Assembly: GCA_012026655.1 (NCBI GenBank)
Contig: JAAILG010000997.1
Location: 1 to 64,000 of the forward strand
From: Hydrolagus affinis
Lineage: Eukaryota
Direction of reading: 5' to 3'
Length of the DNA stretch: 64,000 bases
This document shows positions 50,701 through 53,700 of the stretch, piece after piece. Made by a program: the position numbers. How positions within the stretch are numbered: the first letter of the stretch is position 1; the number at the start of each line of letters is the position of its first letter.

Positions 50701-53700
50701 GGAATAGTGTATACTGTAAAGTGAATTGACTGTATATTTGTGGGCAAAACACTGCAGCCAATTGTGCATTGCAGTGTCTCACAAACAGTCGTGGACTGAA
50801 CTTCAGTCAGTTGAAGTAACCAATTTATTACTTTTTTTTCTTGACGGATTATTATCGGGTGTGTGGAGTAAGGAAACTTGCCTGAGGTATTGCTTTGCTG
50901 GGAAGCGAACCCAGGTCTCTCGCTTGCGAGACGAGTGCTCTAACCACTGAGCTACAGGACTCCACAAATGCTCAAATATTCTAGAATCCTTTTCACAGCT
51001 GATTCTCTGGCAGATTTTATTTCACTGCTTAATACAATCTTTGAAAAGAGCAACTCAATCCCACTGCCCTGCTCTCTCCCCATAACCTAACAGATCTGTT
51101 CTCCCTAAATAAAGTTCTTCATTTCTGGATTGGAAACACATTCAGAAAAAAAAGCATTAGTCTGGAAAATTTGCAAATGAAACCATTTGGCAGGACCAAA
51201 ATTAAATTGTTTTGTAACCTCACTGAGCAGGGTGGGGGAGGGAATTGGGTTTTGATTCACAATTCCCCCAAACGAGACCAATATATCGGCACCTGTGGTT
51301 AAAAGATTGATATAAAGCAGCCAATGTAAACTTGTATCTGTAAACTTGTACTGAATCAATCTGGTCAGTGAGGCATTCGAAATGCAGGGAGGCTGAACAC
51401 AGTGAGAGATAGAGGAAAAAAAGGCATTGTCTCTCCTAATGTCATCTATGAGCCTTTGCAACCTCAAAGGAAGTGAACACTTCTCAATAATACCAGTGCA
51501 TCACAGACCAACAAACTGGTCTATCAGATAACATGGGAGTGGAAGCTAAAGTGCCAAGAGGGAAGTGGAGGGCATAGCTCTGACTCTACTTGTACTTGGA
51601 GCCAGTTCCTCCATGATGAAGAAACTATCATGGTGATGATCTGTTAATCCTGGTGCCAAACCCAGCCAAACCCAGCCAATGCCATTACATCAATCGCAAG
51701 GATTTATTATCATTAATTCAGTGCCTCCAATCTCATGCAAGAAAGATCTATCTCAGAGAGTGGAGGAAGGGTTGGAAATATTCTCTTTCAATTGTTACTT
51801 GCTATAAATGGGATACAGAAGTAAGAATTGGGCATTGCAATTAAATGATCTTCCGAGATCTAATAAACTGGTAGAACAGGCTCGGTGGCAATGAACAATC
51901 TCCCATTGTTCTTGATTTCAAGCATCTCTGCTAATGTTACTTCTCTGACAGGTGTACCCATTGCAGAATTGCTGTCTTTTTCACTTGTTAAAAGTGACGC
52001 ATTAGCCAAGCCTATGTGTGAATCTTTTGTAAACGGGGGAGAAATGAAAAATGTCGATGAACTGTAACCAATGTCTGTCTGCCGCCATCCATTTAATCAC
52101 AATTTCTTTTAGCATTCGTTGCCTACATAACATTACTCGTTCACTGTTCACCCTGTGTGTGCCATTAACTCTCACGTCTCTTTGCAAGGCCTCATTCATC
52201 TCCTTAAGTTGGTTTCCTTGTTTTCAATTGCGAGTATTGTTTTCTTTTGACTGATGCTGTGTTTGGTTGCCTTTCCCCACTGCGCAAACGAAAAACTCTT
52301 TTCTTCTTTTGTCATTTCGATCCAAAAAAAAAACAAAATCCAAGCAGAGACAGTCATAATCCGCAGTCTCAGGCTGCAGGAAAAGTACCCATAACAATGA
52401 CATGGAGAAAACAGTCCAGTGAGTAAGTTCCGTCGACTAGAAGTTAAAAGTGTGATCTGATGGCGTCATGTAACAAGCTCTACGATGGTTGCATGACAAT
52501 GCCGTCAAGTTTCGTGGAGGTGGCGTGAAGCATTATTCGTGAATGTTGTATCGGTTGATGACTGCCCAGTCATTTTCACATGTGCCTTTTGAACTGTGTG
52601 CTGACACTGTTGTTGTTTTTTGTTGCTGTGCTCATTTTAGTTTGGCGGCTTGCAACTGGTTCCTTTAAGAATTAATTATTGTTAATGATTAATTTACAGT
52701 TTTAAGTTCCGTTCAGTCCTGTCAGCTGTGTTTTCTTTAAAAATTGATTTCCCCGCTTCTTTAGATGTCACATGAAACATTGAATTTCCAATCCTTTTTT
52801 TTAAATTATAAATATATATATGTATATATTAAAAAAAAACAGGTTTACTGTTATCAAAGACGTGTGGTTGATTTCTTTGCACTGAAAATATTGTGATTGT
52901 ATTTTTCTTTCGTATGTTTTTTCGAGTAGGGGGCCTTTTTCATTTGAAAGCCTCTCGTAGGATCATAAGAATAAAGAAAATCTTAGTGGATCTATTAACC
53001 GATGCTGGCTGTCACAGACCCAAACTTGCCAAACCAGAACAAACACAAATGGCCAGCACGGGCCTTTAGAATTCCAGCAATTTCAGATTCATTTTCAGTA
53101 GTATGTAAAAACATGCAGAGGAAAAAGTGCTTTTATTGTGCAACTGAAAAAGGGTCCTTTGAAATTGGTTGTTGTTTTTTTTGCTGTTGTAATTGTTGGA
53201 TAGCTGTGTACGGTTTGCTCTTTGTTTAACCAACAGTGTGGGGAACCTGCCAGCATGGATTGATATTCCGCATGACACTTCCACTAGAGTGGACTGTTAC
53301 AGTGGTAGTTTCTTGTGATATAACTGTAAGCGGAATCTAACTTGCTAGCTGTAGACACAACTGCTGTGAAATTTTTTTTTACTTGTTGTTTTAAAACAAA
53401 ATGTGAATTAATATTATGATTGTTAATCATTACCTTTAATAGTTATCATAGCCTCACAACTGTTTTTTATATGTATCTGTAAAATATATGTAATTCAGAT
53501 TCTTAAAGAGACAGTATCCCTATTTTTTGTGGCTAGCTAAGAATTTGCCAGTCAATGGCTAACACTTCAGAATGTATCTTTTCACATACTCCAGCCTTCT
53601 CAAATATGCTGCACCATTTCTATAGATCTGATTTCATTCTATTGAAAAAATGCCATGATTTCATCACTCAACCCATGACTGTTGGGACTCTGCTGAGCGC

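What the first reader, a model, noticed from the sequence alone, without database searches (positions are those of the whole stretch)
52235..52640. Candidate non-coding cassette exon in the 3' UTR intron that would trigger NMD
Seen: an AG-free zone of about 108 nt (52235-52342) with branch-like ttgactgat and a pyrimidine tract, then a tandem acceptor aag|cag| (52344/52347). About 71-75 nt later come two overlapping consensus donors CCA|gtga|gtaagt (52418/52422). UG/UUG-rich sequence follows (52595-52630), and the exon sits in an apparently repeat-free ~1.5-kb block (51960-53450). Inclusion leaves the protein intact but puts a junction >100 nt after the stop. Inference: dosage control by UTR splicing coupled to NMD, plausibly CELF-driven.
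Basis: partly seen in the sequence, partly recalled or inferred. Interest (0 to 1): 0.7.

Follow-up and report, generated by a model that had tools for sequence, protein, structure and literature searches.

The report
Exon-like signals downstream of CELF4 stop
A short stretch after the stop codon of a fish-type CELF4 gene carries splice-site-like signals and could be a hidden regulatory exon, but sequence alone suggests it is more likely a chance look-alike.

Summary
The window holds the 3' part of a CELF4 orthologue on the + strand. I do not take it for human.

The core signals occur at chance frequency:
- 15 AG-free zones of 100 nt or more lie on the + strand and 9 on the - strand.
- There are 36 and 34 GTRAGT hexamers on the two strands.
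- An AG-free zone followed by a donor occurs at 2 loci on + and 1 on -.
- The acceptor has an A-run directly upstream. It has only 4-6 pyrimidines in 20, against 10-17 at the six sites used for comparison and a mean of 9.5 for all AGs.

Some features favour a real exon:
- The layout fits a distant branch point, and it is the only one of 22 zones that also has a consensus donor.
- The body is T-poor.
- There is a rare GU-rich cluster downstream.

All of these criteria were chosen after seeing the locus. The assumed partner acceptor at 54428 is one of 17 strong acceptor-like sites. RNA evidence and cross-species conservation could not be tested. Best reading: a pseudo-exon (0.6); a real NMD-coupled cassette exon about 0.15. 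If real, it would be a new member of the HNRNPDL-type 3'UTR poison exons.

The parts
42841..43006 (+). Last coding exon of the CELF4 orthologue (end of RRM3). The stop TGA is at 42966-42968, followed by 38 nt of 3'UTR and a donor, CAG|GTAATT, at 43006/43007.
   Evidence: tblastn of named CELF proteins gave 100% identity over 42 aa to P0115. The PDB search gave CELF2 RRM3 at E 1.6e-17. The donor matches the consensus at 8 of 9 positions, with U1 duplex energy -8.1.
50972..53653 (.). Block of unique sequence with no in-window repeat copies, containing the candidate exon.
   Evidence: Self-BLAST of the window: third-longest unique block of 83. Only a (TA)11 run at 52807-52829 was found inside it.
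52235..52342 (+). AG-free zone of 108 nt upstream of the candidate acceptor.
   Evidence: It is one of 15 such zones of 100 nt or more on the + strand.
52245..52255 (+). Branch-point-like motifs at the 5' end of the AG-free zone: TTTTGAC is an exact YNYURAY match, overlapping CTGAT. The candidate branch A lies 90-94 nt before the first AG.
   Evidence: yTnAy occurs 21 times per kb in the window, so the motif alone is weak evidence.
52252..52281 (+). Pyrimidine-rich tract following the branch-like motif (70% C+T over 30 nt).
52322..52342 (+). A-rich run (A10 plus CAAAAT) directly upstream of the acceptor, in the place of a polypyrimidine tract.
   Evidence: 4-6 pyrimidines in positions -23 to -4.
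52343..52349 (+). Three closely spaced AGs (AAG|CAG|AG), i.e. a NAGNAG-type tandem acceptor candidate. The exon would start at 52345, 52348 or 52350.
52348..52418 (+). Candidate exon body: 71 nt, or 74-78 nt with the alternative ends. It is T-poor (15.5%) and purine-rich (61%).
52419..52428 (+). Two overlapping consensus donors, GTGAGT and GTAAGT, 4 nt apart.
   Evidence: GTRAGTRAGT occurs once on each strand of the window.
52595..52630 (+). GU/UUG-rich cluster 173-212 nt downstream of the donors, and a possible CELF-type binding site.
   Evidence: 83% G+T and 11 TG; 2 clusters this rich on +, the other a microsatellite; the 300 nt after the donor are in the top 0.5% for UGUUG-type pentamers. 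There is no exact (G/U)UGUUGUG within 500 nt.
53084..53471 (+). Second, denser UGUUG-type cluster in the same unique block. It holds the window maximum of 15 per 300 nt, in the 300-nt stretch starting at 53121.
54403..54500 (+). Strong acceptor-like site (CAG|G at 54427/54428, 17 of 20 pyrimidines) followed by AATAAA at 54464 and 54481.
   Evidence: It is one of 17 YAG sites with 16 or more of 20 pyrimidines downstream of 43006, so the assignment is unverified.

Best explanation
The stretch 52235-52640 is most likely a pseudo-exon. It is a chance juxtaposition of an AG-free, T-rich stretch, a few AGs and a strong donor-like decamer, inside unique non-coding sequence downstream of the stop codon of a CELF4 orthologue. 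It is probably not spliced into mature mRNA at an appreciable level, because the acceptor has an A-run where U2AF would need a pyrimidine tract.

The GU/UGUUG-rich clusters in the same unique block may be real binding platforms for GU-binding proteins, CELF4 itself included. They could equally be ordinary T/G-rich low-complexity sequence. They do not by themselves make the neighbouring signals an exon.

Shown here: the motifs, their frequencies in the window, and the identity of the gene. Inferred: that the site is not used.
For: - AG-free zones of 100 nt or more are common: 15 on + and 9 on -.
- GTRAGT occurs 36 and 34 times on the two strands.
- The combination of zone and donor occurs at 2 loci on + and 1 on the non-gene strand.
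- The acceptor has 4-6 of 20 pyrimidines, against 10-17 for the five mapped coding-exon acceptors and the 54428 site. The mean over all 4142 AGs on + is 9.5, and only 15% have 6 or fewer.
- The donors are good but not rare. 92 of 3557 GTs on + pair with U1 at least as well, and 133 match the consensus at 7 or more of 9 positions.
- Under conventional criteria (YAG, 12 or more of 20 pyrimidines, good donor, 40-300 nt apart) the window has 91 pairs on + and 73 on -. The candidate is not among them.
- The fold is no more stable than shuffles (z -0.41).
- There are no Rfam matches.
- The repeat-free block length is within expectation: 3 observed against 1.0 expected.
- The premise junction 43006 to 54428 is one of 17 sequence-plausible pairings.
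- It is established, from recall (Sun and Chasin 2000, not read here), that vertebrate introns hold many more pseudo-exons than real exons.
Against: - The locus is the only one of 22 AG-free zones of 100 nt or more (14 on +, 8 on -, zones with N left out) that combines four things: a YNYURAY motif in the first 40 nt, at least 65% pyrimidines in the next 30 nt, and a GTRAGT 40-250 nt after the AG.
- This layout matches the distant-branch-point exons, which are enriched for alternative splicing (PMC1431707, passages read).
- The body is T-poor like the real exons: 15.5%, the lowest 3.4% of windows, against 13-29% in real exons.
- The donor is a rare overlapping double consensus, found once per strand.
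- The 300 nt after the donor are in the top 0.5% for UGUUG-type pentamers. Two of the three densest clusters on the + strand lie in this block.
- CELF-family proteins activate exons from downstream UG-rich sites (PMC3627589, abstract read).

These criteria were chosen after seeing the locus, so their joint rarity overstates significance.
Confidence: 0.6

Rival explanations
1. This is a real, low-inclusion cassette exon in the 3'UTR intron of CELF4, using a distant branch point near 52250. Skipping leaves the only junction 38 nt after the stop. Inclusion adds a junction 109-116 nt after the stop, which would mark the mRNA for EJC-dependent NMD. CELF4 or a paralogue bound to the downstream GU-rich cluster would promote inclusion, giving negative feedback on dosage.
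For: - The arithmetic holds.
- The distant-branch-point layout with a donor is unique in the window.
- The body is T-poor.
- The donor is a double consensus.
- A GU/UGUUG cluster lies 173-212 nt downstream.
- Precedents exist. HNRNPDL exon 8 has the skipping junction 22 nt and the inclusion junction more than 55 nt after the stop, is autoregulated and NMD-sensitive (PMC5824352, passages read). CELF2 regulates its own 3'UTR intron (PMC6752737, passages read). CELF4 is reported to bind its own 3'UTR (review PMC13407360, passage read). Stop-proximal 3'UTR introns are conserved in 167 genes enriched for RRM and neural genes (PMC7310861, passages read).
Against: - The acceptor is poorer than a random AG.
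- The core signals are at chance frequency.
- There is no exact (G/U)UGUUGUG within 500 nt.
- The flanking junction partners are unverified.
- No paper linking CELF4 to a poison exon or to UTR splicing coupled to NMD was found.
- Known examples of this kind lie in ultraconserved elements, and conservation could not be tested here.
- The 50-55 nt rule has not been tested in cartilaginous fishes.
Confidence: 0.15
2. The unique block 50972-53653 is a constrained non-coding element of another kind, and the exon-like signals in it are incidental. It could be an intronic or downstream regulatory region, or a GU-rich platform that binds CELF-type or other GU-binding proteins on the pre-mRNA, for example to influence 3' end choice.
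For: - Two of the three densest UGUUG-type clusters on the + strand lie here.
- The block is the third-longest without in-window repeats, and the two longer ones hold the last coding exon and the 54428 site.
- Mouse Celf4 shows regulated use of a differential 3' end exon (PMC2898759, passage read).
- CELF2 shapes its own 3' end by binding its 3'UTR (PMC6752737, passages read).
Against: - The block length is within expectation.
- T/G-rich low complexity is common in vertebrate introns.
- There is no structure signal and no Rfam match.
- Conservation is untested.
Confidence: 0.15
3. 52345/52348 is the start of an alternative terminal exon, i.e. an alternative 3'UTR ending at a poly(A) site after AATAAA at 52970 or ATTAAA at 52828, rather than a cassette exon.
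For: - Poly(A) signal hexamers lie at 52828 and 52970.
- GU-rich 3'UTR-like content follows the acceptor.
- Mouse Celf4 has a differentially used 3' end exon (PMC2898759, passage read).
Against: - The acceptor is equally weak in this reading.
- AATAAA/ATTAAA hexamers are frequent: 36 between 43007 and 57000.
- A strong donor 71-78 nt into a terminal exon would be unusual.
Confidence: 0.05

Closest known systems
HNRNPDL exon 8 and HNRNPD 3'UTR cassette (poison) exons, i.e. alternative splicing coupled to NMD in the 3'UTR (Kemmerer et al. 2018, PMC5824352)
   Same: The stop codon lies in the exon before a stop-proximal 3'UTR intron: 22 nt in HNRNPDL, 38 nt here. A short non-coding cassette exon, when included, adds a second junction more than 50-55 nt after the stop. 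The gene encodes an RRM protein that could bind near the exon. The protein sequence is unchanged.
   Different: HNRNPDL exon 8 lies in an ultraconserved element and has RT-PCR, UPF1-knockdown and reporter evidence. Here nothing beyond sequence motifs exists, the acceptor lacks an adjacent pyrimidine tract, and conservation is untested.
Distant-branch-point exons with long AG exclusion zones (Gooding et al. 2006, PMC1431707)
   Same: The AG-free zone is 100 nt or more. A YNYURAY match and a pyrimidine tract sit at its 5' end, and the first AG downstream would be the acceptor. This class is enriched for regulated cassette exons.
   Different: In that paper about half of the zones of 100 nt or more were attributed to chance even upstream of known exons. 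Here the exon itself is hypothetical and no branch point has been mapped.
CELF2 autoregulation through its own 3'UTR intron and poly(A) site choice (Chatrikhi et al. 2019, PMC6752737)
   Same: A CELF paralogue has a 3'UTR intron and binds UG-rich sequence in its own 3'UTR to change processing.
   Different: That mechanism is intron retention by competition with U2AF65 at the 3' splice site, plus alternative polyadenylation. It is not inclusion of a cassette exon coupled to NMD.
Intronic pseudo-exons (false exons); recalled, Sun and Chasin 2000, not read here
   Same: Acceptor-like and donor-like sites lie at exon-like spacing inside an intron, with no evidence of use.
   Different: This one has a more exon-like body composition and a GU-rich neighbour than a typical decoy.

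Membership tests
CELF4 orthologue (host gene) | Exons encode the CELF4 linker and RRM3 with higher identity to CELF4 than to other CELF paralogues | tested here: met
   tblastn of 118 of the 120 listed proteins (2 from an unnamed source left out) was run against the window. The best was CELF4 of the ray Narcine bancroftii, at 91-100% identity over six exons. Bird CELF4s came next and CELF3s were lower. The last exon alone is not diagnostic, being 95-100% identical in CELF3, CELF4 and CELF6.
3'UTR poison cassette exon (HNRNPDL type, AS-NMD) | The skipping isoform has its only 3'UTR junction less than 50-55 nt after the stop | tested here: met
   The stop is at 42966-68 and the donor at 43006/43007, a distance of 38 nt. 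This is met in sequence terms only. Use of this donor is inferred from its consensus match of 8 of 9.
3'UTR poison cassette exon (HNRNPDL type, AS-NMD) | Inclusion places a junction more than 50-55 nt after the stop | tested here: met
   109-116 nt for the four end combinations.
3'UTR poison cassette exon (HNRNPDL type, AS-NMD) | A competent 3' splice site | tested here: inconclusive
   The adjacent pyrimidine tract is absent: 4-6 of 20, below the mean of all AGs. A distant branch-point and pyrimidine-tract layout is present.
3'UTR poison cassette exon (HNRNPDL type, AS-NMD) | The exon is seen in transcripts (junction reads or cDNA) | not testable with these tools
3'UTR poison cassette exon (HNRNPDL type, AS-NMD) | The inclusion isoform rises when NMD is blocked | not testable with these tools
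   This needs an experiment.
3'UTR poison cassette exon (HNRNPDL type, AS-NMD) | Strong cross-species conservation of the exon and its flanks | not testable with these tools
   The only genome collection open here holds bacteria and archaea.
3'UTR poison cassette exon (HNRNPDL type, AS-NMD) | Binding sites for the encoded protein next to the exon | tested here: inconclusive
   There is a GU-rich cluster at 52595-52630, and UGUUG-type density is in the top 0.5%. The exact (G/U)UGUUGUG motif of the worm homologue (PMC3627589, abstract) is absent within 500 nt. No CLIP data were available.
Distant-branch-point exon | AG exclusion zone of 100 nt or more, with a branch-point consensus and pyrimidine tract at its 5' end | tested here: met
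   The zone is 108 nt. TTTTGAC lies at 52245-52251, and the next 30 nt are 70% pyrimidine.
Distant-branch-point exon | The branch point is mapped or shown to be required | not testable with these tools
   This needs lariat mapping or mutagenesis.
Tandem splice sites (NAGNAG acceptor, GYNNGY donor; names recalled) | Sequence pattern present | tested here: met
   AAGCAG lies at 52342-52347 and GTGAGT with GT at +4 lies at 52419-52428. Use of either site is untested.

The most novel reading that the evidence does not exclude
CELF4 carries an ancient, so far undescribed 3'UTR poison exon that uses a distant branch point and is switched on by CELF-family binding to the downstream GU-rich cluster. 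The neuronal RNA-binding protein would then set its own dosage by UTR splicing coupled to NMD. [quoted passage not shown]
Probability: 0.1. Interest if true: 0.55.

Novelty: not a real feature. Interest (0 to 1): 0.25.

Why it matters
CELF4 dosage matters. Haploinsufficiency is linked to seizures, developmental and behavioural disorders and obesity (PMC3499750, title and listing), and CELF4 is reported to bind its own 3'UTR (review PMC13407360, passage read). No splicing-coupled feedback on CELF4 came up in my searches.

A real 3'UTR poison exon would give a concrete, testable handle on that feedback. As in other poison-exon genes, it would also be a possible target for raising expression. If the locus is a pseudo-exon, as I think more likely, it is an ordinary by-product of long vertebrate introns. 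It then matters only as a caution that AG-free zones paired with donor consensus hexamers occur by chance about once per strand in 64 kb.

Tried and rejected
- **Protein coding.** Stop-to-stop ORFs of 50 aa or more in 51500-54600 look like noise. The 9 longest of the 24 window-wide ORFs of 110 aa or more were scanned and gave 0 Pfam families. Rejected.
- **Structured RNA.** Rfam at gathering scores gave only 5 tRNA-like hits, all elsewhere. The permissive scan of 50972-54600 gave one sub-threshold hit (E 0.67, 23 bits against a cut-off of 80), which I take as chance. The fold of 52235-52640 had z -0.41. Rejected.
- **Transposon-derived exon.** No other copy of any part of 50972-53653 exists in the window. 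Only a (TA)11 run and two A/T palindromes were found. There is no support, but repeat families absent from this window could not be checked.
- **Repeat-free block as a sign of constraint.** Not significant.
- **Human origin.** There were 0 matches to an Alu consensus motif at up to 3 mismatches. The abundant repeats have tRNA-like heads and reach 33 overlapping self-BLAST alignments at one place in 43-57 kb. The best protein match is to a ray. I do not take the contig for human.
- **Paralogue from the last exon.** The last-exon peptide could not tell the paralogues apart.
- **Literature.** Searches for CELF4 with NMD, UTR intron, poison exon, autoregulation or ultraconserved found no report of such an exon. 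The list of 167 conserved stop-proximal 3'UTR introns in PMC7310861 is in a supplement that was closed, so it is unknown whether CELF4 is on it.
- One search failed on a term's syntax and was re-sent.
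Full report
**What the window is**

The + strand carries the 3' part of a CELF4 orthologue. The 41-residue translation of the last coding exon (42843-42965) matches the end of RRM3 of CELF proteins: PDB CELF2, E 1.6e-17. In the large protein set it is 95-100% identical to proteins named CELF3, CELF4 and CELF6, from octopus to birds. There were 7999 proteins with E of 0.001 or less among 8000 candidates, and 120 were listed. That exon alone therefore cannot name the paralogue.

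I then ran tblastn of 118 of the 120 listed proteins against the window. Two proteins from an unnamed source were left out. This mapped six coding exons near 6169-6328, 9759-9908, 27050-27112, 32822-32902, 35930-36073 and 42841-42968. The best match was CELF4 of the ray Narcine bancroftii, at 91-100% identity per exon. Bird CELF4s came next and CELF3s were clearly lower.

I do not take the contig for human:
- An Alu consensus motif finds 0 matches at up to 3 mismatches.
- The abundant repeats have tRNA-like heads: 5 Rfam tRNA hits and 3 tRNA-Ala-like calls by ARAGORN.
- They reach 33 overlapping self-BLAST alignments at one place in 43-57 kb and cover 21% of the window.
- From recall only, their tails resemble the SINEs of sharks and rays.

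The 100-base N run at 46556-46655 was left alone.

**Check of the observation**

- 52235-52342 has no AG and is 108 nt long.
- TTTTGAC at 52245-52251 fits the branch consensus YNYURAY, and CTGAT overlaps it.
- AGs lie at 52343-44 and 52346-47, with a third at 52348-49.
- GTGAGT and GTAAGT start at 52419 and 52423.
- The exon variants are 71-78 nt.
- 52595-52630 is 83% G+T with 11 TG.
- No in-window repeat touches 50972-53653.
- The stop TGA at 42966-68 is 38 nt before the donor at 43006/43007. Inclusion would put a second junction 109-116 nt after the stop.

One point is not as described. The pyrimidine-rich stretches lie 25-90 nt upstream of the acceptor. The 20 nt directly before the acceptor are an A-run with only 4-6 pyrimidines.

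**Is it more than chance?**

The core signals are not.
- The + strand has 15 AG-free zones of 100 nt or more and the - strand has 9.
- GTRAGT occurs 36 and 34 times.
- A zone of 100 nt or more followed within 40-250 nt by GTRAGT occurs at 2 loci on + and 1 on -.
- The acceptor is poorer than a random AG. The mean over all 4142 AGs on + is 9.5 pyrimidines of 20, and only 15% have 6 or fewer. The five mapped coding-exon acceptors and the 54428 site have 10-17.
- The donors are good: consensus 7 and 6 of 9, U1 duplex -7.3 and -5.6 kcal/mol. However, 92 of 3557 GTs on + pair at least as well.
- Under conventional criteria the window has 91 (+) and 73 (-) exon-like pairs, 2 of them in 43007-54427. 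The candidate fails for its acceptor.

Several secondary features are rarer.
- Among the 22 AG-free zones of 100 nt or more without N, this is the only one that also has three things: YNYURAY in its first 40 nt, at least 65% pyrimidines in the next 30 nt, and a GTRAGT 40-250 nt after the AG. That is 1 of 14 on + and 0 of 8 on -. At 80 nt or more it is 2 of 39 and 0 of 29.
- The overlapping double donor occurs once per strand.
- The body has 15.5% T, the lowest 3.4% of 71-nt windows, like the real exons at 13-29%.
- GU clusters as rich as 52595-52630 number 2 on +, the other being a (TG)n microsatellite at 41717-41785, and 1 on -.
- The 300 nt after the donor are in the top 0.5% for UGUUG-type pentamers. 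Two of the three densest clusters on + (52380-52843 and 53084-53471) lie in this block.

Their joint rarity therefore overstates the case. The unique block is not unusually long: 3 blocks of 2682 nt or more were observed against 1.0 expected from 83 blocks.

**The premise**

The reading needs 43006 to splice to 54428.
- The donor is good: 8 of 9 consensus positions.
- 54428 is a strong acceptor-like site followed by AATAAA at 54464 and 54481.
- However, 17 YAG sites with 16 or more of 20 pyrimidines lie downstream of 43006, including one at 43849, only 843 nt away.

So the extent of the 3'UTR intron is not settled by sequence, and neither is whether 52.3 kb lies inside it. That a CELF gene has a 3'UTR intron is plausible:
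- CELF2 has one and regulates it (PMC6752737, passages read).
- Mouse Celf4 shows regulated use of a differential 3' end exon (PMC2898759, passage read).
- Stop-proximal 3'UTR introns are conserved in 167 genes enriched for RRM and neural genes (PMC7310861, passages read). The gene list is in a closed supplement.

**Other readings tested**

There is no coding potential, no Rfam family, no stable fold (z -0.41) and no tandem or inverted repeats of note.

**How it most likely works**

My best reading (0.6) is a pseudo-exon. The signals are real as letters but incidental, and the site is not used at appreciable level because U2AF has no pyrimidine tract at the AG.

If the exon is used, it must rely on a distant branch point near 52250 with the adjacent pyrimidine tract. 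That is the architecture of regulated exons described by Gooding et al. (PMC1431707, passages read). That paper itself attributes about half of the zones of 100 nt or more to chance, even upstream of known exons.

CELF-type activation from a downstream UG-rich site would fit the position rule shown for the worm homologue UNC-75 (PMC3627589, abstract read). Its exact motif, however, is absent within 500 nt.

The NMD step rests on the 50-55 nt rule, which is recalled here from Nagy and Maquat 1998. It is supported for fish and mammals in PMC7310861 and is untested in cartilaginous fishes. That paper also reports that stop-proximal introns 36 nt or more from the stop are the most stabilised on UPF1 knockdown. 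The 38-nt junction itself may therefore not be fully neutral.

Two further rivals remain. The block could be a regulatory or GU-binding platform unrelated to an exon (about 0.15). Alternatively, 52345/52348 could start an alternative terminal exon ending after the hexamers at 52828 or 52970 (about 0.05).

**Comparison with what is known**

The proposed mechanism works like the 3'UTR cassette exons of HNRNPDL and HNRNPD. In HNRNPDL the skipping junction is 22 nt and the inclusion junction more than 55 nt after the stop. The exon is autoregulated and NMD-sensitive, and it lies in an ultraconserved element (PMC5824352, passages read).

Membership cannot be claimed. The geometric features are met. 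The acceptor test is inconclusive. Expression, NMD sensitivity and conservation could not be tested.

No paper linking CELF4 to a poison exon or to UTR splicing coupled to NMD turned up in five searches. [quoted passage not shown]

**Verdict**

On the interpretation I cannot tell, leaning against. If real, the locus would be a new member of a known kind. As it stands, it is most likely not a real exon. Interest 0.25.

- transcript evidence;
- conservation in other vertebrate genomes;
- CLIP;
- trained splice-site models;
- the supplements of PMC7310861.

Noticed in passing
window 43849 (acceptor-like site); 44332 and 44617 (AATAAA): A strong acceptor-like site (17 of 20 pyrimidines, TGCAG|T) lies only 843 nt after the 43006 donor, inside the unique block that holds the last coding exon. 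Poly(A) hexamers follow about 480 nt later. It is an alternative candidate for the start of the terminal 3'UTR exon. If it is the real one, 52.3 kb would lie outside the 3'UTR intron.
   Followed up: partly
window 43006/43007 relative to the stop at 42966-42968: The stop-proximal junction would be 38 nt after the stop. In PMC7310861 (passages read), proximal 3'UTR introns 36 nt or more from the stop were the class most stabilised on UPF1 knockdown. Even the skipping isoform might therefore be mildly NMD-sensitive.
   Followed up: no
window 53084-53471: This is the densest cluster of UGUUG-type pentamers on the + strand of the whole window (15 per 300 nt, in the 300-nt stretch starting at 53121). 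It lies in the same unique block, about 700 nt downstream of the candidate exon. A third cluster lies at 39567-39944, in the intron before the last coding exon.
   Followed up: partly
window 41717-41785: A (TG)n microsatellite lies about 1.06 kb upstream of the last coding exon. It is the only other + strand site as GU-rich as 52595-52630, and it would also be a potential site for GU-binding proteins.
   Followed up: no
window 7332-7403 (-), 12550-12621 (+), 19509-19580 (+), 50890-50961 (-), 56762-56831 (+), 58493-58564 (-): These are tRNA-like (tRNA-Ala-like) heads of an abundant SINE family. In-window repeats cover 21% of the window and reach 33 overlapping self-BLAST alignments at one place in 43-57 kb. 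Together with the absence of Alu motifs, this is the basis for not taking the contig for human. From recall, the tails resemble shark and ray SINEs.
   Followed up: partly
window 53760-53899: A 73-nt unit is repeated 1.9 times in tandem (82% matches) within a copy of the in-window repeat family (53654-53913), just past the end of the unique block.
   Followed up: no
window 46556-46655 and flanks: A 100-base N run is followed by a long C-rich tract (near 46665-46690). The longest AG-free zone on the + strand (46524-46687) is an artefact of this gap. It was left out of the count, but it is included in the 15.
   Followed up: no
window 27050-27112 and 32822-32902: Two short linker exons (63 and 81 nt) of the CELF4 orthologue. 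The 63-nt exon has a weak donor (CAG|GTCGTT, consensus 6 of 9, U1 duplex -5.6). Several of the database isoforms lack a match to one or other of these exons in tblastn, as expected for alternatively spliced linker exons.
   Followed up: no
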